Shown: positions 1 to 34,383 of the stretch, piece by piece | Numbering within the stretch: the stretch's first letter is position 1 | Layout of the letters: every line of letters begins with the position of its first letter | NCBI GenBank assembly: GCA_030765125.1 | Contig: JAVCDD010000180.1 | Location: 7,033-71,032 of the forward strand | Source of the DNA: Candidatus Hatepunaea meridiana | GTDB lineage: Bacteria; Electryoneota; AABM5-125-24; Hatepunaeales; Hatepunaeaceae | DNA length: 64,000 nucleotides | Direction of reading: 5' to 3' | Program-made: the position numbers and the translations under genes | Notes under the pieces: generated by a model | What the model saw: the letters and a program-made list of their open reading frames with translations, nothing else | Told to the model about the DNA's origin: nothing | The model's database searches: none

Positions 1-3000
1 ATACGGCGCGGGTCGGGATCTTCATCCAGTATTATATCCCCGATATCCTCAATGATTTCAGGTGGATCGTTGACCGGATTGATCACCAACCGGAAGTCCA
101 GATCGGTTGAAGCACCCGGTTCGTCGGTGGCTCGAATGGTAATTTCTACGCCGTCCGGGATATTGTAATTCGGTTCAGGTTCGAAATGCAGTACATTGAA
201 CTGGTCGACCTCCATATTCAACTCTTCTGGAGCGTCGATGACCGAAAAGTTCATTTCGTCTTCTTCTATATCGTAGAACACTTCGTCGAGGTCAGCCACG
301 TCAACCCGGTCAGGGTCTTCGTCAATCCTTATATTTTCAATCTGTTCGACAATCCGCGGTGCATCGTTGATGGCGTTAACGACGACTTCGAAGACGTCTT
401 CCGCCGTTTCTTCACCATCTGAAGCGGTGATCGTAACATCGACGTTCCCGTTCCAATCCGCTTCAGGCTGGACATAGAGCCTGCCCTGTACAATGCGAAT
501 ACTAAGCCCTTCAGCGTCGGACTCCTGGAACTCAAGATCGTCATCATCATCCGGGTCAACGAAGTGATCGTTCAGATCGGCAATTAGCCTTTCACCGTCG
601 TCCTCGTCAAATTCCTGATCGGGGATTTCCTCTACTAATATGGGTGGTTGATTTACGTGACCGACGGTAATATCAACCGTTGCGCGGGTCCTGCGACCTC
701 CCTGGTCACTTACTTCGAAGATCGGGCTGTATTCACCTTCATCATCAAGATCGGTCTGCCAGTTGAATGTGCCCGTGTTATCACCATTATCAGTGAATTC
801 CGCGCCGCGGTCTTCAGTTCCGTCGTCAACCAGCATTAACAGTTCCAGTTCGTCACCTTCAAACTCGATGTCAAAATCGTCAGCGGTCAGAGTGAATTCG
901 ATTTCATCGCCCTCATCAACATTTACCTCATCCAGCGGGTCAACCCAGAAGGGAGGGTCATTGACAGGGGTTATGGTAACCAGGAATACATCGTCAATGC
1001 TGTCATCACGGCGCGGGGAAGAAGAATTTTGGATTTTGGATTTTGAATGTTGAATGTCAGTAGCGTAAGCATTCCCGCTTGCGGAAACCATACACGCTGT
1101 TCGTAGCGCCGACGTCTTAACGGCATTACCGGAATTATAAGATGGTCTGAATACCATTAAGGCTCTACCGCCTTGATCATCGTCTGCTGTTACGGTTACT
1201 TCGAGATCATCACCGTTGAAATTCTCCGGAGCTTCCAACAGCAGCATATTATCATCGTCAATCTCTGCCGTAAGAGGTTCATCCGCTTCAACAGAGAATG
1301 ACAGATCATCGTCATCCGGGTCCTCGAATACCTCATCCAATACTGCGACTTCAAACTGACCGAAGTCCTCGGGTACACGCATATCCGCAATCGGGCTGAC
1401 TACCCGAGGTGGCTGGTTGATGTTGTTAACGGTGATATTAACCGTCAGATCATCGGTTCCATCATCTGTGTCGGTTACGCGGAAGACAGGGGTATAAGGA
1501 TCATCACGACTATCATCAGCGCCAGGCGTCCAGGTAAATTCTGCCGTGCCGTCGTCGTTATCAGCAAATTCCCATCCGTCAGGCAATTCACCTTCGTCGA
1601 ATACCGACCAGACCAGATCGTTGACATCATCTTCAACATCACTTGCCTGGAAGACGATATGGAGTTCTTCCTCTTCAGTAACATCAACGTCAATCTCATC
1701 GCCTAAAGCCTCGCCCTGATCGTCTTCGATAACAGGATCATCGTTAATCGAAAGGACGTTGATCGTGAATTCATCGGTAATTGATTCGTCTCTTCGAGGA
1801 GGAGAAGAATGTAGGATGAATTTTGAATGTTGAATGTTGAATGTTGAATGTTGATTATTGATTCGGGCGGCGATCATAATTCGCTGTCCCCAACTGTCCT
1901 CGGCTTCGATAATCACCTCTGATTCACCGAAGTAGTTCGGATCTGGTTCTACGGACAGGATGTGTGTTTCAATATCAATATTAGCGTTCAATTCTTGAAT
2001 CTCATTAGCTTCGATGATGTCAAACTCTAAATCATCACCATCCGGATCATCGAAAACATCGTCCAGGTCGGCGATTTCGATTACACCGGCGTCCTCGTCA
2101 ATATCTATATCGTCAATCGGATTTACAACTTCCGGAGGACGGTTGAAGTTGCCGACGGCGATGGTGATCTCCAGATCGACATCTTCCTCACCATCGGATA
2201 CCGTGAAGATTGGCGTATATTCACCTTCGTCTTCGAACGTTGTCTGCCAGGTAAAGCTTGCCGTACCGTGCTCGTTATCATTGAGTTCCGCTTCATCCGG
2301 CAGACCACCGCGGTCGCTGAATTCGATGGTCAGATCGTTGTTGTTGTCCACGTCATCCTGGGCAATAAGTTCGAAACGGGCAACGTTTCCTTCGTTTACC
2401 TCGTAACGATTGTCTTCAGGATAGCTCTCCCAGACCGGTGGATCGTTGAGCGGATTAACGGTAACAGTGAATTCATCGGATACGGTCTCGTCGCGGCGGG
2501 GTGGAGGGTTGAAATAGGGGGACAGTATACCTATTTCTGTTAATGGACCATCGTTCTTTTCAAGAGCACTCATGAAATAGGTATACTGTCCCCCTATTTC
2601 TGCGAGGCTTCGAGATGGCTGCACATTAACCATCAAACGCCCACCGTTCTCCTCATCATCTGCTGTCACGGTTACGATTAGATTCTCACCGTAAAAATCA
2701 TCCTCCGGTCTCAACGTCAGGATATTCTCATCGCTGATTTCCAGATTCAGTTCTTCAGTACCTTCCACCGAGAAAGTAAGATCGACGCCGTTCGGATCTA
2801 CGAAAATTTCATCCAGGTCGGCTACCTCCAACAGACCGGAATCTTCGTCGATTTCGACATCGTCAATCGGATTTACAACTTCGGGAGGATCGTTGATGGC
2901 TATGCCGGCGATATCAACCGTCAATTCAGCGTTGTCAGGATCGTTGGAGCTAATTGTTATTACGTCGCGGAACACACCGGCGTCTTCGGGAGCGAAGGTT

Positions 3001-6000
3001 ACAGTCAATTCATAGTTGTCTTCGGATTCAATAGTAAGTTCTTCGGCAAAGTCAAAACTGAAGTCCTCACCATCGGAAGTTATTTCGAATATTGTCAGGT
3101 CTCCATTGCCTTCGTTGCTTATGGTCAATATCAGTTCTTCGCTCTCGTGAATTGAAACGTTGCCAAAGTCCAGAACATTGGGGGATATGACAATTGCAGG
3201 ATGCGGGACAAAGTCTGTTACGTCAATGATTACCAAACCATTCTCACCGTCGGCGACGTATGCCATATCTCCCACGATCTGAACCCGTTTGGATAAGCCG
3301 TCTGTGTTATGGGCAGCAATCTCGCTCATATCTTCGGGGTCGGACACGTCGATAATTCCCAAGCCTTCCTCCCCGTCACAAACAAAGGCACTATTGCCTC
3401 GTACATCGATGCCCGTCGCTTCACCTTCGGTATCAAACGAGCCGACTTCAGCCGGATTTTCAGGATCGGATACATCGACCACAATAAGTCCATCATTCCA
3501 TTGTGCTACATAGGCGTAATCCCCGACGATAACGACATCCCAGGCTTGACCCGGAGTATCAAAGGATCCAATCTCATCCGGGTCCTCAGGATTGGAAACA
3601 TCGATAATACGAAGACCGCCTCCAGCAGCAGCTAAATATGCATAGTTCCCGTTAACGTCGACGCCTCGTGAATTACCCGGTGTTTCGACTGTGCTGATTT
3701 CATCAGGGTTCTCAGGGTCGGAAATGTCAATTATACTAAGTGCACTACTCCCTTGGCTCTCATCTGCTACATAGGCATAATCGCCCTCAACGCAGACATC
3801 CCAGGCATACATTTGCCACCTTTCGAGTGCGCCAACCTCTTCAGGGTTCTCAGGATCGGAAATATCGATTATGCGAAGCCCACTTCCGAAGTCCGCTACA
3901 TAAGCATAGTTTCCGATTACGAAGACCGCGCGAGATGTCCCTGGAGTATTGTAGAATCCGATTTCATCTGGGTTCTCCGGATCGGTTACGTCGATCATGC
4001 GAAGACCGCTGTTTCCATCTGCAACATATGCAAAGTCGTTTACAACAAAAATCCCCTGGGCATCTCCCGGTGTGTCGTAGGAGCCTACCTCGTCAATCTG
4101 CGGCTCCCGTCCTGTGCCGGTCAGGTCAACGGTCAGTTCATCGTTATTGGGATCGTCAGATGAAATGGTCATTGTGGCGGTGAAATCACCGGTTTCTTCA
4201 GGTATAAAGGAAACGATTAACTCGAAACTGCCTTCCGGTTCGATAACTAACTCGTCCTCGAAGTTGCTGCTGAAATAATTTTCATCAATTGAAATATCGG
4301 ATACGGTCAGGTCGGCGTTGCCTTCGTTGCCAATAGTGAGAATCAGATCACTCCGCTGGTGGACTGCCACTCCGCCGAAGTCCAGTGATGCCGGTGTTAC
4401 AGTAATACCTGCTTCCGGTTCTTGATGGAAGTAAAAAGCGCCCATATCCGCCTGTGTTTCATCAGGATCGTCCGGCGCGTCCGGATCACCGGAGTCGATG
4501 CAGGGGCTGTTGCGGGTCAGGGAATAATCATCATTGTCTATGTCCGCGAACAATGGATCGGAATCAATGTTCCCCGCTCCGGCGTATCCACCTTGAATAT
4601 CGGAGTAGGCGATGGTTAAACCAGCAGGAGTAGCTCCCGGTTGGTTACCCCAGAAGATCGAGTTCACGATTTGAGCGGAGGAGTTATCATAAGTATGAAT
4701 TCCACCATTGCCGGTCTCGCCGATGTTGCCGGTTATAGTTACGTTTATCAAAGTGGGATCGCTGTCGTGTGTGCTGTAGATAGCTCCACCCCAACGACGG
4801 GCGTTATTGCCCTGTATCAACAGATGATCCAGCGTCGGGGCAGCGTCATTGATGTATATTCCTCCGCCGTAGTTGGAATTTCCATTGCGGATAGTGAAGC
4901 CCATCAAGACCGCATCTACTCCAATTCCATCGCGCAAAGTAACCACACTGCCACCGGCGTTGCCGTCTATGATGGTCGATTCTATATAAGCCTGATCGCC
5001 GGTAGTCAATAACAGGCTGGCAACGACTATCTCCTTACCAATGAAGTTGATGCGTTCAGAATAGGTTCCGGAATGAACAAGCACGGTGTCACCGTTCTCG
5101 ACGGCGTTGATAGCCGCCTGGATGGTTCCATAGTCATCCGGGACGTTGAACAGATGCCTGCCGGGGATACCAATTCCGGTCAGTTCGATGGTGGTTACCC
5201 TTTCGTCAGGATCGTCCGAAATGAGGGTCATAAAGGCTTCAAAATCACCGATGTCGTCAGGTGTGAAGGTAACAGGCAGAGACGCCTGCCCTTCCGGTTG
5301 GATGACAATGGCGTTCTCGAAAGTCGGTACGAATGTCTCCGATCCGCGGATGGTAACTTCCGAGACGGTAAGATCGGCGGCGCCCTCGTTGCGGATAGTC
5401 AGGATCAGTTCTTCGCTGTCATCTATACTGACCTCGCCGAATTCCAGGATTTCCGGCTCAACGGCAATATCCGGAGCCACACCTGAACCGGTCAAGGTGA
5501 TTGTTATTTCATCCTCTTCAGGGTCGTTGGATGCTATGGTTATTATTCCCTCAAAATCGGCGACAGCATCCGGTGAGAAGGTGACGATCAGGTCGGTGTT
5601 GTCGTCGGGTTCAATATTGATTGCATCTTCAAAATCACTGTTGAAGTTGTCACCTTCAATTGTCACTTCGGATACGGTAAGAGGACCTTCGCCTTCGTTG
5701 CCGATGGTTAAATTCATCCGGGCATTATCATCGATTACAACTTCACCGAAGTCAAGATTGTACGTTGAAACTGTAATTGCCGGGTGCGGCATAAAGTCGG
5801 TCACGTTCAGGATGCGCAGTCCGCTGGCTCCATCAGCAACATAAGCGTGAGTTCCGATCACTGAAACATCGTAAGCCTCGTCAGGCGTGTTATAAGATGC
5901 GGTTTCACCAATATTTCCCAAGTCGGAAATGTCTATTACCTGCAGTCCACTCTCCATATCCGCAACGTAGGCGAATCTTCCCAAAACCGTTACGGCAACG

Positions 6001-9000
6001 GCGCGATCTGGCGTGTCAAGTTCACCGAGTTCTTCAATATTTTCGGGGTCGGATATATCGAGGATATGTAAACCACTCTCGTTGTCTGTAACGTAGGCGA
6101 TAGATTCGATGATGAATATTTCCGTTGCAATGTCGGGAGTATCGTAGCGTCCCGTTTCTTCGATATTCTCAGGATCGGAAATGTTCAATACTAACAATCC
6201 ATTAGCGCCGTCTGCTACGTAAGCATATTCACCAATGACTGTTACAGCGTGCGCCAATCCCTCTGTATTAAAGGATCCAACCTCGCTCGGATGCGCCCTG
6301 TTTGATATATTGACCACCCTCAGACCGCTCTCCATATCTGCTATATAAGCGATTGTGCCGACAACAGCGACATCAACGGCATTTCCGGGAGTGTCGAATT
6401 CACCTGTTGGATTGGGGTCTCCGGGATCAAAGACGTCTATGACTTGTAAGCCGTTTTCATCGGCGGCTACGAAAGCGTAGTCTTCCGACACAACAACGCT
6501 CATTGCGGTTCCGATATCACCGGCTGATGCGACCTCGTCAGGGTTCTCAGGGTCGGTTATGTCTATTACTCTTAAGCCTCCGTCACCATCTGCAACGAAA
6601 GCGAAATCTTCTATGACGGTAACTCCGTAAGCTGTTCCATCGGTGTCATAGTTTCCTACTTCGTCGATGTCCGGTTCGCGTCCGGCGCCGGATAACTGAA
6701 CAATTATTTCACCGTTTTCGGGATCGTTTGAGGTGATGGTTAATGTGCCTTCGAAATCACCTGCTTCTTGGGGGGCGAAGGTGACAGACAGGAATGTCTG
6801 TCCTACCGGGTCGATGACAATGGGGTCTTCGAAGCTGCTACTGAACCAGACTCCTTCAACGGTTACATCGGATACGGTTAAAGGACCGTCGCCTTCGTTG
6901 CTGATGGTGAGTCTTTGATCAATACTGCGTTCTATCTGTATAGCGCCGAAGTCCAGTTGTTCCGGTTCAACGACTATTATTGGAACTACGCCTGTGCCGG
7001 TTAATGCTATGGCTATTACCTCTTCATCCGGATCATCAGAGGATATGGTCAGTGTTGCTTCAAAATCACCTGATTCCTGTGGAGCGAAAGTAACGGTCAG
7101 ATCGAATTCCTCATCCGGTTGGATGACGAACGCTTCGTCGAAGTCGCTGCTGAAGTAATTCCCTTCAATTGCGATGTCAGAGACGTTCAATTCAACCAAA
7201 CCATCATTGCTTAATGTAAGCGTCAGATCAGCGCTCTCGCCTCCTGACACCTGACCGAAGTTCAATTCATTCGGATTAACCATTAGATTCGGTTCTTGCG
7301 CCTGGTGGTAGTAGAGTGCGCCCATATCGGCGCGGGTTTCGTCCGGGTCTTGATCGGCGTTGGGATCACCGGTGTCGACGCAGGGGCTGTTGCGCAAGAT
7401 TTGGTAGTCGCTGTTGTCTGCATCGGCAAATAAGGGATCTTCCTCGATGTTGCCTGCACCGGCATAGCTGCCTTCAATATCTGAGAAGGTGATCGTCATA
7501 CCGTTCTGCAGATCAGGCGGTTCGTTGCCCCATATAATAGAATTAATCACCTGAGCACTCGCTCCACCGCCGCCGATGCCAATAGCAGCGTTGTCGCTGT
7601 TTGCAGTGTTACCGGAGATGGTTACGTTGACGAGAATGGGAATGGAACCGCTGGTGGCGTATAGCCCACCGCCGCGTCCACTGGCGACGTTGTCGACTAT
7701 AGCGAGGTGATCGAGCGTGGGCGTGGTCTGATCGCCGTTGCAATAGATACCACCGCCCCAATCGGTGTCGGCATTTCTAACGGTAAAGCCGGTCAGGATT
7801 GCCGCTTCCGTTTCACCGTTGCGGAAGACGACCGTACTCCTGCCGTTTGCGCCGCCGTCAATTATGGTCGATTCGATGTATTCAGCCTCACCTGTGGTCA
7901 GGTACAGACTGCCGACGGTTACGTCTATGCCGTTGAAGTTGACGTTCTCTTCGTAGGTGCCGGGTTGAACCAGCACGATGTCACCGGCTATGGATACGTC
8001 GATTGCTTCCTGGATGGTTTCATAGTCATCCGGCACGTTGACGGTGCGCGCTTCGGTCTCTATACCGGTGCCACTCAAATCAACGGTTACTTCTCCTTCA
8101 TCGGGATCGTCGCTGGTTATGGTCAATACAGCTTGCAGATCGCCTGTTTCACCGGGCAAGAAGGTTACATTAACTTCAGAACTTTCGTCCGGTTGGATGA
8201 CAATGGGGTTTAAAAAGTCGCTGCTGTAGTAGGCGCCTGCAATCGTTATATCGGAGACGGTCAGTTCGATATTGCCTTCGTTAGAGATAGTTATGGCTAA
8301 CTGGGACGACCTGCCCATTTCAGTTTCAGGGAAGGCGAGGGCTTCGGGATCAACGGCGATGTCAGGTGTAAGTCCCGATCCGGTTAAGGGGATGTTTATC
8401 TCACCCTCATCGGGATCATTGGACGTTATGGTCAGCGTTCCTTCGAAATCACCGGTTTCATTCGGCTGGAAGTTTACGTTGAACTGCCGGTTGCCGTCCG
8501 GTGCAATTACGAATTCCTCCTCAAAGTCCGAGGAGAAATATTGACCTTCGATGGAAATATCCGAAACAGTAAGATCGGAATTTCCATCATTGGTGATTAT
8601 CAATGGCAGAGTGGATATTTGTCCCACCAGGCAGTCGCCAAATGGGAAGGAATTGCGGTTAACGGTAATATCCGGCGCCACGCCTGAACCGCTTAGCGCA
8701 ACCTCAACCTCCGGATCGTCCGGATCATCGGAAAGTATAGTCAGGGTTGCATCAAAATCGTTCACCTCTTCCGGCGCGAACGTAACGGTCAGCTCAAAGT
8801 CCTCAAACGGTTGGATGACGATTTCTTCATCAAAATCGGTCAGGAATGTCTGCGCTCCCCGGATTGAAATATCCGAAATGGTCAATTCCCAGTTGCCATC
8901 GTTGCTGATGGTTAACGTCAGGTCTTCAGTTTCACCGGTTACAACCTCACCGAAGTCGAACGCTTCGTCTGAAAGGGTGATTTCGGGGTATTGGACGAAG

Positions 9001-12000
9001 TCGGAGACGTCGAGGATTAATAAACCGTTATTCCCATCAGCCACATATGCATAGTTTCCTACAACAGAAACATCCCAAGAATGTTGAGTTCGGTGATTAC
9101 CAACCTCATCAGGATTCTCAGGATCTGAAACATCTATTAAACGTAGACTGCTTTGACCGGCGGGAGTAAAGCATGCAACATAAGCTATGTTACCTACAAC
9201 AGTTAAGTCTCGAGCATAATCACGTGTATCTTGAGATCCAACTTCGACCAATTCATCTGGGTTAGAAATATCAATAATTCTTAGACCTTCTGTATAATCT
9301 GCTACATAAGCATAGTTTTCTATGACTGAAACACCCAGAGCTGCACCTGGAGTATCATATATTCCTAATCCTCCAAGGTTACGAGCATTAATCAATATTA
9401 AACCTGTCTGATTATCTGCAACATAAGCGATCTCATCAACTATCACAACATCCCGTGCGATTTGCGGCGTGTTAAATGAACCGGTTAATCTTGGATCTTC
9501 AGGGTCGGATATGTTAATAGCTTGCAAACCGCTACGTCCATCAGCTATGTAAACATAATCTCCGCTGACCGCAATACCTTCTGCCCAATCAGGAGTATCA
9601 CAGCTTCCTATTTCATCAGGTTCCTCAGGATTAGACACATCAATAATACGGAGACCGCTCTCGTAATCCGCTACAAATGCCAAATTATCCGAAACCACCA
9701 CATCATAGGCATTTCCTGGAGTTTCACAGAAACCTATCTCATCTGGATTCTCTGGATCAGAGATATCTATTATCCGTAGACCCCCTGCATTATCTGCTAA
9801 ATAGGCAATATCCCCGACAATATCTATACCAAATGTTACACCATTAGTATTATAATGCCCCACTTCCGGTATCGCCGGTTCCCTGCCGACTCCCACCAAT
9901 GCAACATCCACTTCCCCATTATCCGGGTCGTCGGAAGTTATGGTCAGTGTCCCCTCGAAGTTGTTCTCGCTGTCCGGTGTGAACCGAACGGGTAGTTCGA
10001 AGGTGGCGTCCGGTTCGACGATCATCTCTTCATCGATATCCTCAAAGATACTGCTGAAGTTGTCGTGTCCGATTGATATATCGGATATGGTCAGGTCGCC
10101 GTCACCGTCGTTGCCGATGGTCAGGATGAGCTCGACGGTCTGGTCGATTACGACCTCGCCGAAGTTCAGCGATTCGGGATCATGCGTGAGGATAGGCGCA
10201 ACGCCCAGTCCGCTTAAGTTCACATCCAATTCTCCATTATCCGGATCATCGGATGTTATGGTCAGCGTTGCCTGCAGGTCTCCGGTCGCGTCAGGTGCAA
10301 AGGTTACGGTCAGTTCATAGGGCTCGTCCGGTTCGATGACGACCTCACCGTCGAAGTCGCTGGTGAAGTAGTCACCCGCGATTGATATGTCGGAAACGGT
10401 CAGAGGCGCGCGTCCCTCGTTGTTATCAATAGTGAGAATCATATCTGTCTCGTGACCGACTACCGTGTTGGGGAAGACAAGCTCTGCCGGTGTTACAGCG
10501 ATAACGGGAGCCGCTTCCTGGAAGAAGTAGAGGGCGCCCATATCGGCGCGCGTGGTGTCGGGGTCTTCGGGAGCGTCGGGATCGGCTGCGTCAACGCAGG
10601 GGCTGTCCTCAGTGATGTAGAAGTCGTTGTTGTCTGTGTCAGCGAAAATGGGATCGGAATCAAGGTTGTCTACTCCAGCGTAACCGCCCTCGATGTCGCA
10701 GTATGCAACGGTCAATCCGTTCGGCATTCCGGCGGGTTGGTTGCCCCAGACGATTGAGTTTCCGATAGTGGCTGAGGCGCCTGCAAAGATATTAATAGCG
10801 CCGACCTCTTCGTTTGCCGTGTTGCCGTAAAGGGTTATAAAGTTCAGATCAGGATTGGCGTTGTTGGTGGCGTAGATACCTCCACCGCGGCTGGTGGAGC
10901 TGTTTCCGTAGATTACCAGATGATCCAGCGTCGGGCTCGCGTCGTTGATATAGAGCCCACCGCCGAAGTCGGTTGAGCCGTTGCGAATGGTGAAGCCTAT
11001 CAGTTCCGCTTCGTCTGTCTCACCGTTGCGGAAGGCGACTACACTACGCCCGTTGTCGCCGCCGTCGATTATGGTTGAGGCTATGTCATCCGGATCGTCG
11101 CTCTCGATATATTGGCTGGCAACCGTGATGTTTTTGCCGCGGAAATTGATGTTCTCATTATAAACACCGGGGTCGACCAGAACGCGGTCGATGTCAATGG
11201 CTTCGTCAATGGCTGCCTGGATGGTCTCGAAGTCATCAGGGACGTTGTATTCGCGGGGCTGTGCTTCGATGCCGGTTCCTGACAGGGCAACAGCAAGCTC
11301 ACCGTTGTCGGGATCGTCTGAGGTGATGGTCATAGTGGCTTCGTGGTCACCGGTCTCGGTGGGGGAGAAAACGACAGACAGGAATGTCTGTCCTACCGGT
11401 TCTATGATTATTTCGTCTGTAAAGTCGCTGCTGAAATAATCCCCTTCAAAGGTTACGTCTGTAATGTACAGGTCTGTATCGCCGGTGTTGCTGATGGTTA
11501 TGACAGACAAGGATGTCCGTCCCACCTCAGTATCAGGGAATCCAATGGCTTCGGGGTCTATGGTGATTTCGGGGTATTCTACGATGCCGCCGGTAACTTC
11601 GGAACAGTTGAAGATGTAAAGCCCTTCATCCTCATCGGTGATATAGGCGTAATTGCCGGATACATACAAGCCGATAGCGTAGCCTGGAGTGTCGTGGAAA
11701 CCAATCTCTTCCGGTTCGGCAGGGTTTGAAACGTCTATCAAGCGCAATCCCTCGTCACCATCGGCAACATAAGCGAAATCATGCGCGACAAAGACGCTTT
11801 CGGATGAGCCGGGAGTGTTTACAAAGCCGACCTCTTCCGGTTCTGCGGGGTTTGATACGTTTATAATGCGAAGTCCACTGCCTGAAGCGGCGACATAAGC
11901 ATAGTCACCGGCTGCGAAAACTCCATAGGCACGACTCGGCATTTCGAGATTGCTCACTTCATCCGGATTTTCCGGGTCGGACACGTCGATTATGCGCAGT

Positions 12001-15000
12001 CCACCGGCTTGATCTGCAAGATAAGCGTAGTCACCTGAAACGTAAACTGAAAAAGCTTGACCGGGTGTGTCGAACGCTCCAATCTCATCGGGATCATCGG
12101 GGTTGGAGACATCAATTATACGCAGACCGCTGGCGCCGTCTGCAACGTAGGCAAGATTGTCTTTGTAATAAACAGCATACGCGGCACCCGGGGTGTCGAA
12201 GGTTCCGACCTCATTGGGATTTTCGGGGTCTGAGATGTCGATTATGCGCAGTCCGCTGGCAGCGTCCGCAACGTAAGCATACGAACCAGCAACGTCTATG
12301 CCGGTTGCTTCACCGGGGGTGTCGTAGGAACCGACAGCCTGCGGTTGACCGGGGTCGGATACGTCGACAATCTGCATACCTTCCCAGTAGTCAGCTATGT
12401 AAGCCAGCCCTCGCGAGACGTAGACGCCTTCGGACATTCCGGGCGTTTCGTAATGACCTACCTGCCGGATCTGCGGACCGGTTCCGATGCCGGTTAAATC
12501 AACTTCAATCTCCTCGTTTTGAGGGTCGTTGGAGGTGATGGTCAGTGTGCCAGCGTAATCGATTGTTTCTACAGGTGTAAATGTTACGGTCTGTTCGATG
12601 CTGTTGTCGGGTTCTATGGTGATTTCGTCCTCAAATACGGTTTGGAATACTTCGTCACCCTGAATGGTAATATCAGTGATGATAAGATCCTCATTTCCTA
12701 CATTGGTGATGGTGAGGATAAGATCGCGGTCAATGTCAATGGCAGACTCGCCGAAGTCGAGCGCACCCGGTGAGATCCTGATAGTCGGAGGCTGGGGTTG
12801 CTGTTGGTAGTAGAATGCGCCCATATCGGCACGTGTTTCATCGCTATCCTGGGGCGAGTTCGGATCACCGACGTCTATACAGGGGGAGTCTTCGGTCAGT
12901 TGGAAATCATCATTGTCAAAGTCGGCAAATAAGGGATCCTGATCGATGTTGCCGGCGCCGTTATAACCACCCTGAACGTCAGAATAGGTAATGGTTTGTC
13001 CACCAGGAAGCGCTGCCGGGGTGTTTCCCCAGAATATCGAGTTGACTGCCTGTGTTTGAGCGCCACCCCCTCCAACACCTATTCCGCCGTTACCGCCATC
13101 GGCGTCGTTGTTGGTGAATGTTATGTTATTCAGGAGCGGTTGCGCACCAGTGGTGACATAGATGCCTGCACCTCGTCCGCTGACGTGATTGCCTGTTATC
13201 AATAGATGATGCAATGTAGGATTAGCGCCACGGATGTAAGAGCCGCCGCCGAAGTCGGTATCTGCATTGCGGATTGTGAAGCCTGCGAGGACAGCTTCGT
13301 TTGTCTCACCGTTGCGGAAGACCGTTACGCTTCTGCCGTTGGCGTCACCGTCGATAATGGTCGAAGCGATGTAATCAGGATCACCGGTTGTGATATAGAG
13401 GCTGCCAACGACGATATTCTTACCAATAAAGTCAATGATCTCAGTATAGGTTTCAGGTTGAACCAGTACTGTGTCACCGTCAGCAGCGTTGTCGATTGCT
13501 TCCTGGATGGTGTCGTAGTCGTCCGGAACGTTGATTATAAAATCTCGTCCCGATCCGGAAAGAGCTACTGCGAGATCCTCGTTCTCAGGATCGTCAGATG
13601 CTATGGTAAGTGTTCCAACGAAATCATCAATGTCATCCGGTGAGAAGGTTACGGTTAATTCGCGACTTTCATTCGGTTGGATGACGATCTCATTCTCGAA
13701 ATCGCTGATGAAGTTGTCCCCTTCAATAGTTATATCGGATATAGTCAGATCACCGAAACCGGTGTTGCTGATAGTGAGTATCAGGTCTGCTTCGTCGTCA
13801 ATCGGAACAGCACCGAAGTCCAGGGCATCCGGAGATACGTCAATAGCGGGGATCGCTTCGACACCGATTCCGGTCAGGTTCACATCCAGGTTCTCGTTAT
13901 CCGGATCGTTAGATGTGATTACAAGCGTGCCGGCGAGATCACCGGTATCATCCGGCTGGAAGGTGACAGTTACATCAGAAGTGTTGCCCGGTTCGATGAC
14001 CACTTCATTCTCGAAATCTGAACTGAATATGTCTCCTTCAATAGTAATATCCGAGACATTCAGGTTTTCACGTCCTCTATTTCGGATGGTTAGAATCAGA
14101 TCGGCGCTCTGGTCGACTACTACCTCAGCAAAGTCAAGCGCTTCAGGAGAAACAACGATGCTCGGTCCCTCTGCCTGGAATAACGGGAATGTTCCCATAT
14201 CGGCGCGTGTGCCGTCCGGGTCTTCGGGTGCATCAGGATTGCCTGTATCTTTACAGGGGCTGTCATCGGTCAGGTGAAAATCATCATTGTCGGGATCAAC
14301 GAACAATGGATCTGTATCTATGTTGCCTCTGCCGTTATAACCGCCCTGGATATCAGAGAATGTGATCGTCTGGTTGGCGGGAATATCTGGTGGGGCATTA
14401 TCCCAGAATATGGAGTTTACAATAGTAACCACTGATCCACCGAAAACATCCAGAACACCGTTGTTTTGCTCAGAATCATTGCGGGTCAGGGTAACGTTTG
14501 TCATCGTAGGACTACCGCCGCCATAGGCAATTATCGCACCGCCCCATCTTACGGTATGGTTATCGGTGATCAATAAATGATCCAGTATCGGGCTGCCGCC
14601 ATTACAGAGTATTCCCCCTCCGAAATCAGCGGCGCCGTTGCGAATTGTAAAACCGGACAGGATGGAATTCACTGTCTCACCGTTGGCAAAGGTTACAACG
14701 CTAGTGTTATTAGCATCGCCATCGATTATGGTTGATTCAACGTAATCCGCATCACCTGTAGTAATAAACAGGCTGCCTACAATGATTTCCTTGCCGTTAA
14801 AGTTGATGTTTTCTGTGTATGTCCCGGGCGCTACCAAAACAGTATCCGTGTCGATGGCATTATCAATAGCTTCCTGTATAGTATCGAAATCATCAGGCAC
14901 ATCGTGTACATGATCGAGCGGTTCGATGCCAGTTCCAGTTAAAGCGACGTCAACTTCTTCTTCATTCGGGTCATCGGATGTAATAGTGAGCGTTCCCTGG

Positions 15001-18000
15001 TAATCTTCTATATCATCAGGTGCAAACGTTACCGTAACATCATAACTGTTGTCCGGTTCGATTACGATTTCATCTTCTTCGAAGTCGTGCGTGAAAACAT
15101 CACCTTCAATAGTGATGTCAGTTACGGTCAGATCGGTACGACCATTATTCCTGATTGTGAGCGACAGTTCAGCGCTCAATTCAAGCTCAACCTCTCCAAA
15201 GATAAGTTGAGCCGGTATTACCGATATGTTTGGCTCTTCCGGCAGCTCGAAGTAGAAGGCGCCCATATCATTGCGTGTTTCGTCAGGATCCTGTGGTGAA
15301 TTCGGATCACCTGCATTTATACAAGGGGAGTCTTCAGTTAATTGGAAATCATCATTATCAAAGTCGGCAAATAAGGGATCGGAATCAAGATTCCCTGCTC
15401 CGGCGTATCCACCCTGAACATCGGAATATGTAATAGTCTGACCGCCAGGAAGCGCTGCAGGTGTGTTTCCCCAGAATATCGAGTTGATTACCTGGGTTTG
15501 AGCGCCGCCCCCACCGACTCCGATTCCACCGTTGGCACCGTCGGCATCGTTGTTGGTGAATGTTATGTTATTCAGGAGCGGTTGTGCTCCGGTAGTGGCA
15601 TAAATCCCTGCGCCGCGTCCGCTGACATGGTTGGCGGTTATTAATAGGTGGTGCAATGTTGGACTGGCGTCACGGATGTATGAGCCGCCTCCGAAGTCGG
15701 TATCTGCATTGCGAATTGTGAAACCGGCAAGGACGGCTTCGTTTGTCTCGCCGTTGCGGAAGACCGTTACGCTTCTGCCGTTGGCGTCACCATCAATAAT
15801 GGTCGAAGCGATATAGTCGGGATCACCTGTGGTGATATACAAACTGCCGACAACGATGTTCTTGCCAATAAAGTCAATGATTTCAGTATAGGTCTCAGGT
15901 TGAACCAGCACCGTGTCGCCGTCAACAGCGTTGTCGATTGCTTCCTGAATGGTATCGTAGTCATCCGGAACATTGATTATGTAATCCCGTCCCGATCCTG
16001 AAAGAGCAACAGCGAGATCCTCGTTCTCCGGATCGTTAGATGCTATGGTTAACGTTCCATTAAAATCACCAACGTCATCCGGTGAGAAGGTCACATTTAA
16101 TTCATAGCTGTCATCCGGTTCGATTACAACCTCATTCTCGAAATCGCTGATGAAATTGTCACCTTCAATGGTTACATCGGATATAGTCAGATCACCGAAG
16201 CCGGTGTTGCTGATGGTTAGTATCAAGCCTGCCTCGTCGTCAACCGGAATTGCTCCAAAGTCCAGCGCATCCGGCAATACTACTATTGCAGGAATCGCTT
16301 CGACACCGATTCCGGTCAGGTTCACCTCCAGATCTTCATTGTCCGGATCGTTGGATGTGATTACAAGCGTACCAGCGAAATCTCCGGTAGCATTCGGCTG
16401 GAAGGTAACGATTACTTCAGAAGTGTTGCCTGGCTCGATGACTACTGCATTCTCAAAATTGCTGCGGAAGTTATCCCCCTCAATTGTTATATCGGATACC
16501 CTTAAGTCTTCACGTCCTCTATTTCGGATGGTGAGCGTCAGATCAGCGCCCTGGTCGACTACTACCTCAGCAAAGTCGAGAGCTTCAGGGGAAACAACGA
16601 TACTTGGTCCTTCAACCTGGAACAGCGGGAATGTTCCCATATCAGCGCGTGTGCCGTCCGGGTCTTCGGGTGCATCAGGATTGCCTGTGTCTTTACAGGG
16701 ACTGTCATCGGTCAGGTGAAAATCATCATTGTCGGGGTCAACGAACAATGGGTCTGTATCTATATTGCCTCTGCCGTTATAACCGCCCTGAATGTCGGAG
16801 AAGGTGATTGTTTGGTTAGCCGGTATATCAGGTGGGTCGTTATCCCAGAATATGGAGTTTACAATAGTAACCACTGATCCACCGAAAACATCCAGAGTGC
16901 CGCTATTTTGCTCGGAATCATTACCGGTCAGGGTAACGTTTCTCATCGTAGGACTACCGCCGCCATACGCAATTATCGCACCGCCCCATCTGACGGAATG
17001 GTTGTCGGTGATCAATAAATGATCCAGCATCGGGCTACCGCCATTACAGAGTATTCCCGCTCCGAAGTTAGCACCGCCATTGCGGATAGTAAAACCTGAC
17101 AGGACGGAATTCACTGTCTCACCGTTGGCAAAAGTTACTACGCTCGTGATATTCCCATCACCGTCAATAATTGTTGATTCGACGAAATCTGCATTACCTG
17201 TTGTAATAAATTGACTGCCGACGACGATTTCCTTGCCGCCAAAGTTGATGTTTTCAGTATAAGTTCCGGGCGCTACCAACACAGTATCCGTATCGATGGC
17301 GTTATCGATGGCTTCCTGAATGGTATCGTAGTCGTCGGGAACGTTGATCCTGAAACTTCTCCCGATTCCAGAAAGAGCGACAGCCAACTCTTCGTTCTCC
17401 GGATCATCTGATGCAATAGTAAGTGTCCCATTAAAATCACCTACGTCATCAGGAGAGAATGTAACCGTTAATTCATAACTGTCATCCGGTTCGATTACAA
17501 CCTCATTCTCAAAGTCGCTGCTGAAGTTATCGCCTTCAAAGGTAACGTCCGAAACGGTCAGGTCACCGAAACCCACGTTGGCGATAGTGAGTATCAGATC
17601 CGCATCGCCGTTAACCACTACCGCACCGAAGTCCAAAGCATCTGGAAATGGATCAATAGAAGGGATAGCTTCCACGCCGATTCCTGTCAGATTAACCTCC
17701 AATTCCTCGTTATCCGGATCATTGGATGTAATTACAAGCGTTCCGTTAAAATCACCTGTATCATCAGGCTGGAAAGTGACAGTTACTTCATAAGTGTTGC
17801 CCGGCTCGATGTCCACTTCATTATCAAAATCGCTTCTGAAGATGTTCCCCTCAATCGTTATATCAGATACATTTAAGTCTTCGCGTCCCCTGTTTCTGAT
17901 AGTGAGCGTTAGATCGGCACTCTGGTCGACTACAACCTCAGCAAAGTCAAGCGCTTCAGGAGAAACAACGATACTTGGTCCCTCTGCCTGGAATAGTGGG

Positions 18001-19862
18001 AATGTTCCCATATCGGCGCGTGTGCCGTCCGGGTCTTCTGGGGAGTCAGGATCACCTGTATCGATACAGGGGCTGTCGTCAGTCAGGTGATAATCATTAT
18101 TGTCGGGATCGGCAAATAAAGGATCCGTGTCGATGTTGCCTGCACCTGCATACCCACCCTGGACATCGGAGTAGGTAATCGTTTGATTGGCTGGTATATC
18201 GGGTGGATCGTTATCCCAGAAAATCGAGTTAACCATATTAACAACTGCACCGCTGAAAATGCTCAAAGCTCCGTTGCCTTGATCGGCGCTATTGCCTGTT
18301 AAGGTGATGTTTCGTATAGTAGGGCGGGCGTTGGCGTAAGCAATTATTCCTCCGCCTCGATTGACGGCGTTGTTGCCGGTTATCAGGAGATGATCCAGCG
18401 TCGGGGCAGAACCATTACAGAGTATTCCCGCTCCGAAGTTAGCCCTGCCATTGAAGATAGTAAAACCTGACAGGATGGAGTTCACTGTCTCACCGTTGGC
18501 AAAGGTTACTACACTCGTGTTATTCGCATCGCCGTCAATAATAGTTGATTCAACATAATCCGCATCACCCGTTGTAATAAAAAGGCTGCCGACAAGGATT
18601 TCCTTGCCGCTAAAGTTAATATTCTCCGTGTAAGTTCCGGGAGCAACCAGTACAGTATCCGTATCAAGCGCATTATCAATAGCTTCTTGTATAGTATCAT
18701 AATCATCCGGCACGTCTATTCTGTGATCGCGGGGTTCTACGCCCGTTCCTGTTAAAGCAACGTCAAGTTCTTCCTGGTCCGGGTCGTCGGAGGTAATAAT
18801 TAGCGTTCCCTGATAATCCTGCGTTTCCTCAGGGGCAAAGGTTACAATTACATCATAACTGTTATCCGGGTCGATAACTACTTCATCTTCTTCAAAGTCA
18901 TGCGTGAAACCATCTTCATGAATGGTAATATCCATTACAGTCAAGTCGGTGCGTCCAATATTGCTTATAGTAAGAGTTAATTCAGCGTTTTGTTCAAGCT
19001 CAACATCCCCAAAGTTAAGCTCAGCCGGTGACACGGCAATATTCGGTTCTTCCGGCTGATCGAAGTAGAACGCGCCCATATCGGCGCGTGTCTCGTCGGG
19101 ATCATCGTCTGAATTGGGGTCTCCGGTGTCAATACAGGGGGAGTTCTCTGTGATGTAAAAATCACCTTCACCAGGATCGACAAACAACGGATCCTGGTTG
19201 ATGTTTCCATTACCGGCATAACCACCCTGGATGTCGGAATATGTAACGGTCATCCCATTGGGTCTTCCGGCGGGTTGGTTGCCATAGGATATGCAGTTGA
19301 CCATATTAGCCGAGGCGCCGCCGTAGACATGAATTCCCCCATTGCCGCCTTCAGCCGTATTGTTGGCAATCGTAATGTTGGTCAAACTGGGAAGAGCGTC
19401 GCTGGTGCAATAGATGCCACCTCCCCACCTGGCAGCGTGGTTTCCGGTAATGAGCAGATGATCCAGCGTCGGTCGAGCGTTGTTAATGTATAGTCCACCA
19501 CCGTAATTTGCCGAACCGTTTGTGATCGTAAGACCAATCAACCGCGCTTCCGCGCCTACACCACCGCGAATTGAAACAATAGTACCACCACCACCGCCAT
19601 CGATGATAGTATTTTCGATGTGCTCCGGATCGTTTTCGTTCAGGTAGAGACTGGCAACGGTGATTTCCTTATCCAGGAAATTGATGTTTTCAACGTATCT
19701 ACCGGGCTGAATCAGCACGACATCGCCGTCTTCAGCTTCGATTATCGCTTCCTGAATGGTTTCAAAGTCGTCAGGAACGTTTATCACCTCAGCGTAAACG
19801 GTTGATACACCTGTGATTATTGCAAGTATAAAAGTAATAATTAGAGGAAATTTAGGACGCAT
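1..19862 (-). CDS. Giant secreted multidomain surface protein; N-terminus complete, C-terminus beyond the left window edge (>=6620 codons)
   Basis: Absent from the ORF track, which appears to list only ORFs with a stop in the window. The ATG is at 19862-19860 on the minus strand, followed by the signal-like peptide [24 protein letters not shown]. I hand-translated 1-2700 codon by codon and read through the rest. The nine V-P-D-D module starts (first bases 19778, 18713, 17342, 15971, 14900, 13529, 11243, 8036, 5144) and the RRD codons at 2498 and 1796 all share one phase (coordinate mod 3 = 2). A stop in that phase would have produced a listed ORF starting at 19862, and none is listed. Confidence 0.85.
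   Translation of the reverse strand, partial: [6620 protein letters not shown]
1026..1060 (-). repeat. Heptanucleotide tandem repeat (TGGATTT)2(TGAATGT)2, in frame in the giant ORF
   Basis: Units attttgg (1026-1032, 1033-1039), attttga (1040-1046), atgttga (1047-1053) and atgtcag (1054-1060). Verified translation is ...[22 protein letters not shown]. Confidence 0.8.
1817..1865 (-). repeat. Heptanucleotide tandem repeat (TGAATGT)4 plus degenerate flanking units, in frame in the giant ORF
   Basis: Perfect units lie at 1824-1830, 1831-1837, 1838-1844 and 1845-1851. Degenerate units are tgaattt (1817-1823), tgattat (1852-1858) and tgattcg (1859-1865). The stretch translates on the minus strand as [28 protein letters not shown]. 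Confidence 0.85.
2511..2600 (-). mobile_element. 90-bp palindromic element (family A, GGGGACAGTATACC core) lying in frame inside the giant ORF
   Basis: The perfect 27-bp arms are gaaatagggggacagtatacctatttc (2511-2537) and its reverse complement (2574-2600). The arms are identical to the intergenic copy at 23858-23944. The 36-nt loop resembles that copy's loop in inverted orientation. Codon-by-codon translation gives [31 protein letters not shown] with no stop. Confidence 0.75.
3215..4110 (-). repeat. LVIVD-repeat beta-propeller block 4
   Basis: Repeats such as [25 protein letters not shown] and [25 protein letters not shown]. Confidence 0.7.
5795..6685 (-). repeat. LVIVD-repeat beta-propeller block 3
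   Basis: Repeats such as [24 protein letters not shown] and [23 protein letters not shown]. Confidence 0.7.
6783..6809 (-). repeat. REP-like 27-mer (GTAG head + GACAGACA/TGTCTGTC hairpin) inside the giant ORF
   Basis: The plus strand reads gacagacaggaatgtctgtcctaccgg. The minus strand reads ccGGTAGGACAGACATTCCTGTCTGTC and codes PVGQTFLSV within an Ig-like domain. It is identical to 11373-11399 and near-identical to intergenic copies at 35287, 35349 and 56611. Confidence 0.8.
9000..9885 (-). repeat. LVIVD-repeat beta-propeller block 2
   Basis: Repeats such as [25 protein letters not shown] and [25 protein letters not shown]. Confidence 0.7.
11373..11399 (-). repeat. Second identical copy of the REP-like 27-mer inside the giant ORF
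   Basis: Same 27-mer as 6783-6809, coding [15 protein letters not shown]. A degenerate relative, gacagacaaggatgtccgtcccacc, lies at 11501-11525. Confidence 0.8.
11600..12475 (-). repeat. LVIVD-repeat beta-propeller block 1
   Basis: Translation shows about 7 repeats of the form AYVAD..[24 protein letters not shown], matching my memory of the PF08309 LVIVD consensus. Confidence 0.7.
12465..17348 (-). repeat. Tandem duplication, two units of 2442 bp (beta-helix + 2 Ig + beta-helix + 1 Ig) inside the giant ORF
   Basis: Module starts 17342/14900 and 15971/13529 are each exactly 2442 bp apart. A 60-nt stretch I compared (16981-17040 vs 14539-14598) matches at 55/60. The antisense shadow ORFs 13531..14277 and 16150..16719 have near-identical translations. 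Confidence 0.8.
17349..18719 (-). repeat. Partial third copy (1371-bp sub-unit: beta-helix + 2 Ig) of the tandem repeat
   Basis: The module start at 18713 lies 1371 bp from 17342. The shadow ORF 17794..18090 is near-identical in translation to the corresponding parts of 16150..16719 and 13531..14277. Confidence 0.7.
19794..19862 (-). other. Predicted signal peptide of the giant ORF
   Basis: Translation [32 protein letters not shown] has a basic N-terminus, a hydrophobic core and a VYA-type cleavage motif. No predictor was run. Confidence 0.55.
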
Positions 19863-19927: not shown

Positions 19928-20002
19928 AACAGCATTATAATTTAACTCTAAACCAGGTTCAAAGTCAAGTCTTTTCATAAGATGAAAATAGAAACTGAAA
20001 TC

Positions 20003-20078
20003 GAGAGACAGTATGCTTGTTTTTACCCATTTCCTTAATAAAGTTCCAGATTGTAATAAAATCAGGTATACTGTCCCC
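20003..20078. repeat. Family A hairpin element (diverged copy)
   Basis: The arms are gagagacagtatgcttgttttt (20003-20024) and aaaatcaggtatactgtcccc (20058-20078), imperfectly complementary. They share the GACAGTAT core with the copies at 2511 and 23858. Confidence 0.55.
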
Positions 20079-23830: not shown

Positions 23831-23857
23831 TATCTTTACTCCTAAGATGGGATTGAT

Positions 23858-25689: not shown

Positions 25690-25746
25690 TGTGATCGTCT
25701 CTTTTATGAACCACAGATTACGCGGATTTAACAGATTATTTTGTTT

Positions 25747-34227: not shown

Positions 34228-34242
34228 TATAACCGCCAAATC

Positions 34243-34377: not shown

Positions 34378-34383
34378 ATTTAT

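What the first reader, a model, noticed from the sequence alone, without database searches (positions are those of the whole stretch)
2480..2640. A 90-bp perfect-arm palindrome is read through in frame inside the giant ORF and matches an intergenic element 21 kb away
The arms at 2511-2537 and 2574-2600 are perfectly complementary 27-mers. They are identical to the arms of the element between the Mrp-NifX and OYE genes (23858-23883 and 23918-23944).

The loops (36 and 34 nt) are clearly homologous, but in opposite orientation relative to the plus strand. I translated every codon: the ORF continues as ...VQPSRSLAE-IGGQYTYFMSALEKNDGPLTEIGILSPYF-NPPPRRDETVSDEF with no stop.

A paralogous cadherin-like module further downstream in the protein (translation ...ASDGEETAEDVFEVVVNAINDAP, within 1-1000) has no such insert at the equivalent loop. 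Identical arms with diverged loops suggest recent mobility or gene conversion.
Basis: seen in the sequence. Interest (0 to 1): 0.85.

Follow-up and report, generated by a model that had tools for sequence, protein, structure and literature searches.

The report
Mobile palindromic repeat inside giant gene
A 90-bp hairpin-forming mobile repeat (a REP doublet of the kind spread by IS200-like tyrosine transposases) sits in frame in a floppy surface loop of a giant secreted protein of the uncultured bacterium Candidatus Hatepunaea meridiana; it is real and neat, but this kind of event is already known.

Summary
Positions 2511-2600 are a 27-nt perfect inverted repeat around a 36-nt loop, exactly 30 codons, read through on the minus strand of an ORF of more than 6634 codons. 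A second copy lies between two genes at 23857-23944.

The arm is not private to this contig. Its 20-nt core GGGGACAGTATACCTATTTC occurs in at least 124 public contigs (GC 38-72%), usually as inverted doublets with loops of 4-124 nt. In 17 loci it abuts a 220-310 aa IS200-like Y1 (RAYT-like) transposase gene, and in 8 it flanks the gene on both sides.

So the element is a REPIN-like doublet. It matches the "TIRYT/TIRtron" repeats with a GGGGWSAS motif described by Di Nocera et al. 2013.

It sits in a hypervariable loop between the last two strands of an Ig-like module. AlphaFold2 models exactly these 30 residues as disordered. The genic copy is 90 bp and open in one frame of six, the frame used; the intergenic copy is 88 bp with stops in all six.

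In-frame REP dimers encoding 20-30 aa, and Rickettsia RPEs, are already published. This is a new member of a known kind, of moderate interest.

The parts
2511..2600 (-). Genic REPIN-like doublet. It has a 27-nt arm (2511-2537), a 36-nt loop (2538-2573) and a 27-nt arm (2574-2600). Its 90 bp are 30 codons (EIGGQYTYFMSALEKNDGPLTEIGILSPYF) read in frame in the giant ORF.
   Evidence: Only 1 of its 6 frames is open, and that is the frame used. The RNA hairpin has -50 kcal/mol, z -7.4. There is no target-site duplication.
23857..23944 (+). Intergenic copy of the same element, in the opposite orientation. It is 88 bp and lies between the stop of the Mrp-NifX gene (23962) and the start of the OYE-type oxidoreductase gene (23830).
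   Evidence: It has stops in all six frames. It is reproduced 100% in a separate assembly record, ENA ERZ27315452 k141_276112.
19997..20085 (.). Diverged relative of the element (arms GAAATCGAGAGACAGTATGCTTGTTTT and CAGGTATACTGTCCCCGATTCC), 90-180 bp upstream of the giant ORF's start codon.
34236..34388 (.). Diverged relative with a loop of about 92 nt (arms AAATCGGGGATAGTATGCCTGTTTTC and AAAAACAGTTATACTGTCCCATTTATTT), intergenic, just after the ORF 31069-34227.
3..19862 (-). Host gene: a giant secreted protein of at least 6620 aa, with its C-terminus outside the window. It has a signal-peptide-like N-terminus, LVIVD repeats, and HYDIN/ASH-type and Big_9/cadherin-like Ig modules.
2490..2639 (-). 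The hypervariable loop of Ig-like module A (aa 5756-5805, R-LMVNVQPSRSLAE-[insert]-NPPPRRD). It lies between the last two beta-strands of the module, and the doublet sits inside it.
   Evidence: Module comparison; alignment with paralogues P0001 and P0002; AF2 model with pLDDT below 50 only at model residues 129-159.
1788..1883 (-). Equivalent loop of sister module B. It carries an in-frame heptamer tract (TGAATGT x5.4) instead of the doublet.
1005..1166 (-). Equivalent loop of sister module C. It has 54 aa of unrelated sequence, including a heptamer tract (GAATTTT x4.6) that is 88% identical to the tract in module B.

Best explanation
The 90-bp palindrome is a non-autonomous mobile element of the REPIN type: two copies of a REP-like unit in inverted orientation around a short spacer. 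REPINs are mobilised in trans, as single-stranded hairpin DNA, by an IS200/IS605-type Y1 (HUH) transposase of the RAYT/TIRYT kind encoded elsewhere in the genome.

One copy landed in, or was only retained in, a long, unconstrained, surface-exposed loop between the last two beta-strands of an Ig-like module of a giant secreted protein of Candidatus Hatepunaea meridiana. It persists because this particular variant is 90 bp long and has no stop in the phase and orientation in which it sits. It therefore adds 30 disordered residues without breaking the fold or the downstream frame.

Shown here:
- the anatomy of the element;
- the family's wide distribution;
- its physical association with Y1 transposase genes;
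- the absence of a target-site duplication;
- the loop position in the protein;
- the frame compatibility.

Inferred:
- that a RAYT/TIRYT exists in this genome;
- that it moved this copy by the single-strand 'peel and paste' route of IS200/IS605 relatives;
- that the protein is still made and functional.
For: 1. The arm is repeated far beyond chance: 4 matches against 0 expected. Two diverged relatives also lie in the window.

There are 43 inverted doublets with loops of 4-124 nt.

3. Partner arms, which the search did not force to match, are 80-100% conserved at every core position.

4. 17 of 124 arm-fetched loci have a Y1 transposase gene beside the arm. In 8 of them inverted arms flank the gene on both sides, and the gene's stop codon lies inside the arm.

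5. The transposase scores above threshold on Pfam Y1_Tnp (E 1e-8 to 1e-13). On NCBIfam REP_Tyr_transpos it scores 74.8 bits against a cut-off of 80. Its best solved relative is 4ER8, E. coli TnpA-REP.

6. The arm core GGGGACAG fits the GGGGWSAS motif of TIRYT-associated repeats. The 3' overlap with the gene and the dimer/cluster organisation also match Di Nocera et al. 2013 (PMC3733652).

7. Both flanks of the insert align collinearly with paralogues, which have unrelated 14-16 aa at that place. Sister modules D and E have nothing there.

8. In the AF2 model the domain has pLDDT 91-98. The only segment below 50 is model residues 129-159, matching the 30 inserted residues.

9. The genic copy is 90 bp with 1 of 6 frames open, the one used. 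The intergenic copy is 88 bp with 0 of 6 open. In the same phase it has TGA and TAA exactly where the genic copy has substitutions and two 1-nt insertions.

10. There is no target-site duplication, as expected for Y1 elements.
Against: - No RAYT/TIRYT gene lies in the 64-kb window, and the rest of this MAG could not be read. The link to a transposase in this genome therefore rests on other genomes.
- No empty-site orthologue was found. The closest relatives in the databases are paralogues of 46-52% identity from the same MAG, so 'insertion' is inferred from paralogues and from the element's distribution.
- The arm lacks the GTAG/CGTC tag of classical REPs.
- The small hairpin within each arm is weak (-4.4 kcal/mol) and is not conserved in all lineages.
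- Site 1 has no independent assembly or read support.
Confidence: 0.85

Rival explanations
1. The element is exapted. Either the 27-bp stem in the roughly 20-kb mRNA acts as a regulatory signal (ribosome pause, RNase III site, or stabiliser of the upstream mRNA), or the 30 extra residues give the adhesin-like protein a useful new surface loop. On this view the copy is kept by positive selection rather than merely tolerated.
For: - The hairpin is very stable (-50 kcal/mol, z -7.4).
- Compared with its intergenic relative, the genic copy carries exactly the changes that remove stops and restore the frame.
- The same loop is hypervariable in sister modules and paralogues.
- Published RPE work argues for compatibility with protein function (PMC10969869).
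Against: - The insert is modelled as disordered.
- Frame compatibility is a precondition for survival of any insertion in an essential frame, so it does not show positive selection.
- No other gene in 5.8 billion protein clusters shares the peptide, so there is no recurrent recruitment.
- No expression data are available.
Confidence: 0.1
2. It is an assembly artefact: two loci were joined at a shared repeat, or the repeat was collapsed into the contig by mistake.
For: - Repeats are classic sites of metagenome mis-joins.
- Site 1 has no independent assembly support here.
- Exact-protein look-ups for other proteins of this MAG failed.
Against: - The sequences on the two sides of the element belong to one and the same Ig-like module. 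They align collinearly with paralogues across the junction.
- They form the two last strands of one confidently modelled domain.
- The reading frame is kept for 5770 codons upstream and 838 downstream.
- The element differs from the other copy in its loop, so it is not a pasted duplicate.
- The sister copy is reproduced in an independent assembly record.
Confidence: 0.03
3. The 30 codons are ancestral coding sequence of the adhesin family that was later copied into intergenic DNA.
For: The homologous loop is long in several modules and paralogues.
Against: - The arm occurs in at least 124 unrelated contigs, nearly always outside convincing ORFs and next to Y1 transposase genes.
- No paralogue or sister module has this sequence.
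- No protein in the large database shares it.
Confidence: 0.02
4. It is a conventional MITE: a deletion derivative of a DDE-transposase insertion sequence, moved by cut-and-paste through its terminal inverted repeats.
For: - It has 27-bp terminal inverted repeats and a size of about 90 bp.
- The GGGG start of the conserved core is reminiscent of Tn3-family ends (from memory, not tested).
Against: - Neither copy has a target-site duplication.
- The gene found between arms is a Y1/HUH transposase, never a DDE enzyme.
- The outermost bases of the arms are the least conserved part, which is the opposite of DDE element ends.
- Loops range from 4 to 124 nt and are mostly unrelated between lineages, apart from one shared subfamily with loops of about 31-36 nt.
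Confidence: 0.03

Closest known systems
TIRtron / TIRYT-associated inverted repeats with the GGGGWSAS motif (Di Nocera, De Gregorio, Rocco 2013, BMC Genomics 14:522; PMC3733652)
   Same: - The arm core GGGGACAG fits GGGGWSAS.
- Inverted copies flank an IS200-like tyrosine transposase gene.
- The 3' copy overlaps the end of the gene.
- Copies are scattered through genomes as dimers and clusters.
   Different: - The paper reports only an 8-nt shared motif in a handful of cultured species. Here a 20-nt core is kept almost unchanged across contigs of 38-72% GC.
- The host is a candidate phylum (Ca. Electryoneota).
- The section of that paper read here did not mention an in-frame genic copy for this repeat class.
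REPINs and RAYTs (Bertels and Rainey 2011, PLoS Genet 7:e1002132; Bertels et al. 2017; E. coli TnpA-REP, PDB 4ER8)
   Same: - The element is an inverted doublet of a short repeat around a spacer that forms a long hairpin.
- The repeat flanks a Y1 transposase gene.
- The doublets are non-autonomous.
- The repeat units are conserved while the spacer is freer to vary.
   Different: - Classical REPs carry a GTAG (or CGTC) tag and a clear internal palindrome. This arm has neither tag and only a weak internal hairpin.
- The transposases are longer (220-240 aa against 165 aa for E. coli) and score just under the NCBIfam RAYT cut-off.
- REPINs are described as lineage-specific and extragenic, whereas this core is shared across very different genomes.
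Rickettsia palindromic elements (RPEs) and intragenic REP dimers (Ogata et al. 2000, as cited in PMC3733652 and PMC10969869)
   Same: - A palindromic repeat is inserted in frame into a protein-coding gene.
- It adds a few tens of residues at a place compatible with the fold.
[quoted passage not shown]
   Different: - The repeat family, the associated enzyme and the host all differ.
- RPEs are about 100-150 bp and are frequent in genes. Here a single genic copy was seen among 43 doublets examined.

Membership tests
REPIN / REP-RAYT system | Two repeat units in inverted orientation around a short spacer, predicted to form a hairpin | tested here: met
   27/27 complementary arms with a 36-nt spacer. 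ssDNA fold -27.8 kcal/mol, z -9.7. RNA fold -50 kcal/mol.
REPIN / REP-RAYT system | The repeat unit flanks a RAYT (Y1 transposase) gene, in inverted orientation | tested here: met
   Met in related loci L008, L020, L022, L084, L088, L093, L109 and L120. Not testable for this genome: the window has no such gene.
REPIN / REP-RAYT system | The transposase is a RAYT rather than an ordinary IS200 TnpA | tested here: inconclusive
   NCBIfam REP_Tyr_transpos scores 74.8 bits against a cut-off of 80, and far above IS200 (17.7 bits). Pfam Y1_Tnp is passed. The best PDB hit is 4ER8 TnpA-REP, E 3e-4.
REPIN / REP-RAYT system | GTAG or CGTC tetranucleotide tag at one end of the REP unit | tested here: not met
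   Neither GAAATAGGGGGACAGTATACCTATTTC nor its complement contains GTAG or CGTC.
REPIN / REP-RAYT system | Many copies per genome, overwhelmingly extragenic, with a single-copy transposase | not testable with these tools
   Only 64 kb of the MAG could be read: 2 canonical and 2 diverged copies, 3 of them extragenic. The MAG is not in the genome collection scanned.
TIRtron / TIRYT repeats (Di Nocera 2013) | Inverted repeat carrying the motif GGGGWSAS | tested here: met
   The core begins GGGGACAG. The motif is as stated in PMC3733652.
TIRtron / TIRYT repeats (Di Nocera 2013) | Repeats flank, and may overlap the 3' end of, a tyrosine transposase gene with HUH and catalytic Tyr | tested here: met
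   The stop codon lies inside the arm in 8 loci. Arms flank the gene on both sides. HUH (NHVH) and the RY..NPV Tyr align to 4ER8.
TIRtron / TIRYT repeats (Di Nocera 2013) | TIRYT-specific length and amino-acid signatures | not tested
   The paper's Additional file 5 was not examined. The proteins here are 219-235 aa.
Rickettsia palindromic elements (RPE) | In-frame insertion into an ORF at a structurally tolerant place | tested here: met
   30 codons in frame. Disordered loop between two strands.
Rickettsia palindromic elements (RPE) | Sequence belongs to an RPE family, in a Rickettsia host | tested here: not met
   The host is Ca. Hatepunaea meridiana, FCB group. The element belongs to a Y1-transposase-associated family. 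No sequence comparison with RPEs was run.
DDE-type MITE | Direct target-site duplication flanking the terminal inverted repeats | tested here: not met
   The flanks are GGGTGGAGGGTT / TGCGAGGCTTCG and GATGGGATTGAT / CACTTTGTGGTG.

The most novel reading that the evidence does not exclude
This may be a REP-transposase system of unusual kind. Its 20-nt recognition core, and even a loop subfamily of about 31-36 nt, are shared almost unchanged between an FCB-group candidate phylum and Gammaproteobacteria-labelled MAGs of much higher GC. That would imply either inter-phylum spread without plasmid or phage carriers, or extreme long-term constraint, unlike the lineage-specific REPIN-RAYT pairs described so far. 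In this genome the system would also actively remodel surface loops of giant adhesin-like proteins, the genic copy being an exapted, translated loop or an mRNA-level control element.
Probability: 0.12. Interest if true: 0.55.

Novelty: new member of a known kind. Interest (0 to 1): 0.3.

Why it matters
- It is a clean, well-delimited example of a transposase-dependent palindromic repeat becoming part of a protein without destroying it. Its intergenic sister copy shows which changes made this possible: two 1-nt indels and the loss of two stop codons.
- It extends REPIN/TIRYT-type elements to a candidate phylum (Ca. Electryoneota).
- It shows that one 20-nt repeat core is shared by very different environmental bacteria. 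That is relevant to how conserved these transposase-repeat partnerships are.
- For annotation: such elements inside giant repetitive genes should not be read as frameshifts, mis-assemblies or novel domains.

Tried and rejected
- **Transposase in the window.** tblastn with 8 family transposases found nothing.
- **Empty-site orthologue.** The protein search returned only relatives of 52% identity or less, and the best ones (P0001, P0003) come from another contig of the same MAG. Exact-protein look-ups for the OYE gene and for P0001 failed.
- **Other proteins carrying the encoded peptide.** No candidate was found in 5.8 billion clusters. Two earlier attempts failed on parameter limits.
- **Mobile carriers.** The core is absent from IMG/VR viral contigs and from PLSDB plasmids.
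- **Known RNA family.** Rfam gave no hit at gathering thresholds anywhere in the window.
- **The loop as a landing pad for several mobile repeat families.** The extra DNA in sister loops B and C matches only each other (a heptamer tract, 88% over 34 nt) and no intergenic repeat. Rejected.
- **Older degenerate in-frame copies in the other large ORFs.** None found.
- **Target-site duplication.** None.
- **Other doublets inside genes.** The few doublets in the 124 loci that lie in long open frames are on high-GC contigs, some with several frames open at once, so they look spurious. These were not examined further.
- **Tool failures.** A first fuzzy-regex scan timed out, and a first Pfam call used the wrong frame.
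Full report
**1. The observation**

Window 2511-2537 and 2574-2600 are perfectly complementary 27-mers (GAAATAGGGGGACAGTATACCTATTTC) separated by 36 nt. The arm occurs four times in the window, counting both arms of both elements, against 0.00 expected from dinucleotide shuffles.

The second element is at 23857-23944. Its arms are the same except for the outermost base, and its loop is 34 nt. It lies between the stop of an Mrp-NifX fusion gene (23962) and the start of an OYE-type flavin oxidoreductase gene (23830), both on the minus strand.

The two loops are homologous only if one is reverse-complemented: 26 of 36 positions match, with two single-base indels. Because the arms are a perfect palindrome, this simply means the two copies are inserted in opposite orientations.

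On the minus strand the 90 bp are exactly 30 codons, EIGGQYTYFMSALEKNDGPLTEIGILSPYF. They lie inside a stop-free frame from 19904 to 3 (6634 codons, ATG at 19862) that runs off the left end of the window.

**2. What the repeat is**

The arm is not private to this contig. A 21-mer from it hit four contigs of MAGs labelled Gammaproteobacteria (GC 58-65%), each time as an inverted doublet in intergenic DNA, with a loop mostly unlike that of the window elements. The loop of L004 proved homologous, as described below.

Among all these loci plus the window I counted 43 inverted doublets, with loops from 4 to 124 nt.

The partner arms of exact matches were not forced to match by the search. They are 80-100% conserved at each of the 20 core positions. 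The 6-8 nt outside the core follow only a loose consensus, (G)AAWTMS, and differ from lineage to lineage.

In many loci a single arm abuts the 3' end of a converging gene of 220-310 aa whose stop codon lies inside the arm.
- These proteins pass Pfam Y1_Tnp (IS200-like transposase, E 1e-8 to 1e-13).
- One scores 74.8 bits on NCBIfam 'REP-associated tyrosine transposase' (cut-off 80) against 17.7 for ordinary IS200.
- Their best solved relative is 4ER8, the E. coli REP-associated transposase, with the HUH motif and the catalytic tyrosine region aligned.

Seventeen of the 124 loci fetched through the arm alone carry such a gene. In eight of them, inverted arms flank the gene on both sides. This is the defining arrangement of REP/RAYT systems, and the inverted doublet is the architecture that Bertels and Rainey named REPIN (PMC3116915).

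The closest published description is that of Di Nocera et al. 2013. They describe tyrosine-transposase genes flanked by inverted repeats ('TIRtrons', enzymes 'TIRYT'). Some of these repeats share the motif GGGGWSAS, may overlap the 3' end of the gene, and occur in genomes as dimers and clusters. GGGGACAG fits that motif.

The arm lacks the GTAG or CGTC tag of classical REPs. Its internal hairpin is weak (8 bp, -4.4 kcal/mol). I therefore file it as REPIN-like/TIRYT-type rather than as a classical REP.

Neither copy has a target-site duplication. That fits a Y1 element and argues against a DDE-type MITE.

The core is absent from IMG/VR viral contigs and from PLSDB plasmids. Rfam has nothing in the window.

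**3. The host and the window's own population of the element**

The Mrp-NifX protein of the window is 100% identical to a GenBank protein of 'MAG: Candidatus Hatepunaea meridiana' on a 74.6-kb contig. That organism belongs to the phylum Candidatus Electryoneota, FCB group. This is consistent with the T9SS sorting domains on neighbouring large proteins.

The window holds no transposase of this family. That is not surprising for 64 kb of one genome.

Besides the two canonical copies there are two diverged relatives, both intergenic, at 19997-20085 and 34236-34388. So the family has been in this genome for some time.

The intergenic canonical copy and its junctions are reproduced with 100% identity in a separate assembly record (ENA ERZ27315452, 1926 nt).

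The loop of the window's two copies is homologous to the loops of doublets in a Gammaproteobacteria-labelled MAG (L004) and in two metagenome contigs (L085, L086). A whole doublet subfamily with loops of about 31-36 nt is therefore shared by very different genomes.

**4. Is it an insertion, and where in the protein?**

The host gene encodes a giant secreted protein with LVIVD repeats and Ig-like (HYDIN/ASH, Big_9, cadherin-like) modules.

The element sits in module A between ...VTVTADDEENGGRLMVNVQPSRSLAE and NPPPRRDETVSDEFTVTVNPLNDPP.
- Sister modules D and E go straight from the 'SDGEET/TDEPGA' turn to the 'F.V.V..VNDxP' strand.
- Modules B and C have other long sequences at the same place, bracketed by the same 'GGR.LMV' and 'PPRRD(E/D)' anchors.
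- Two relatives, P0001 and P0002, align collinearly on both sides and have unrelated 14-16 aa where the window has the 30 element-encoded residues. P0001 is a paralogue from another contig of the same MAG; P0002's source is unknown.

An AlphaFold2 model of aa 5641-5859 gives a confident Ig-like domain (pLDDT 91-98). The only segment below 50 is model residues 129-159. The insert is residues 129-158, between strands 99-109 and 167-177.

The collinearity and the single well-formed domain across the junction exclude a chimeric join at a repeat. The wide extragenic distribution of the arm excludes the idea that it is ancestral coding sequence copied outward.

I could not find a true empty-site orthologue. 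Insertion is therefore inferred, not directly shown.

**5. Why it is readable**

Of the six frames of the genic copy, only one is free of stops, and it is the one the ORF uses. The intergenic copy is 88 bp and has stops in all six frames.

In the phase used by the gene, the intergenic loop reads ATA AAT ACT CTT TGA AAT AAC GAC GGT CAA TAA. The genic loop reads ATG AGT GCT CTT GAA AAG AAC GAT GGT CCA TTA ACA. Both stops are gone, and two 1-nt insertions bring the length to a multiple of three.

Either a compatible variant was the only one that could persist here, or the copy was repaired after insertion. In both cases the pattern is what purifying selection on a still-used giant gene would leave. 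It does not by itself show that the insert is useful.

None of the other 42 doublets lies in a comparably convincing ORF. No protein in a database of 5.8 billion clusters shares the encoded peptide. Genic copies of this family therefore appear rare.

**6. Consequences (inference)**

In the mRNA the element forms a 27-bp perfect stem (-50 kcal/mol, z -7.4). Established knowledge of bacterial RNase III and of ribosome pausing suggests this could cost stability or translation speed. Nothing here tests that.

At the DNA level the hairpin is the presumed substrate of the Y1 transposase, so the copy may still be excisable.

**7. Comparison with what is known**

In-frame palindromic repeats in genes are known from two sources:
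- Rickettsia RPEs (reviewed in PMC10969869).
- The survey of Di Nocera et al. It found intragenic REPs in several species, more than half of them dimers or grouped repeats encoding 20 to 30 amino acids.

The present case has the same size and logic. New here are the host lineage, the particular repeat family in a genic position, and the instructive pair of genic and intergenic copies. Also new is the observation that one 20-nt core is shared across contigs of 38-72% GC whose transposases are only about 36-65% identical.

**8. Verdict**

It is a new member of a known kind. Interest 0.3. Confidence in the explanation 0.85.

Noticed in passing
window 1817-1861 and 1024-1055 (minus-strand giant ORF, sister loops B and C): Heptanucleotide tandem repeats lie inside the coding frame: TGAATGT x5.4 and GAATTTT x4.6, encoding NIQHS(K/T)F-like peptides. 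Their period is not a multiple of three, so gain or loss of one unit would frameshift the last roughly 600-850 or more codons. This is a possible slipped-strand phase-variation site. The two tracts are 88% identical over 34 nt.
   Followed up: partly
window 34616-34715: An unrelated intergenic palindrome with 29-nt arms (97% complementary) contains ATTCCCGCGAAGGCGGGAAT. From memory, this fits the ATTCCC-N8-GGGAAT pattern of neisserial dRS3-type repeats. A 28-nt stretch (34625-34652) is 100% identical to part of metagenome locus L023, which also carries the REP arm.
   Followed up: no
window 50665-50762, 50155-50215, 25703-25840, 21849-21908: A further family of intergenic palindromes or tandem units is built on GC-rich GCGCTTCAGCGC / CAAGCTGAAGCTTG hairpins flanked by GAACTCTGAAC-like motifs. 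One has 41-nt arms that are 90% complementary.
   Followed up: no
window 35567-35633 and 34384-34425: Nested perfect palindromes (21-nt arms with no spacer; 20-nt arms with a 2-nt spacer) lie just downstream of large ORFs. They look like terminators.
   Followed up: no
window 57409-57444 (inside ORF 56819-62233), 56568-56600, 62482-62544: There are octanucleotide tandem repeats (ATCACAAC x4.5, GTGGTGTC x4.1, TAACAATA x5.9). The first lies inside a 1804-aa ORF and could also shift the frame.
   Followed up: no
loci L003, L004, L020, L095, L024, L038, L087 (next to the arms): The lineage-specific outer 7-12 nt of the arm are often reiterated in tandem just outside the element. Examples are CACCCGTATTTT x3 in L004, GCGAATTCC x2 in L020 and GGGAATCC x3 in L095. 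These may be footprints of repeated insertion or excision, but they remain unexplained.
   Followed up: no
window 3-19862, 27068-30409, 31069-34227, 35641-50094, 51070-56562, 56819-62233: The window is dominated by very large ORFs (more than 6620, 4817, 1830, 1804, 1113 and 1052 aa). T9SS C-terminal sorting domains were found on the two that were scanned (27068-30409 and 31069-34227). This is an island of giant surface or secreted proteins.
   Followed up: partly
loci L020, L039, L084, L088, L093, L109, L022, L078: The Y1 transposases of this family share a conserved C-terminal tail (H.RTGRPLG..F...LE.LTGR.LAP.KPGRKP) beyond the catalytic domain, and they end with a stop codon inside the repeat arm.
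   Followed up: partly
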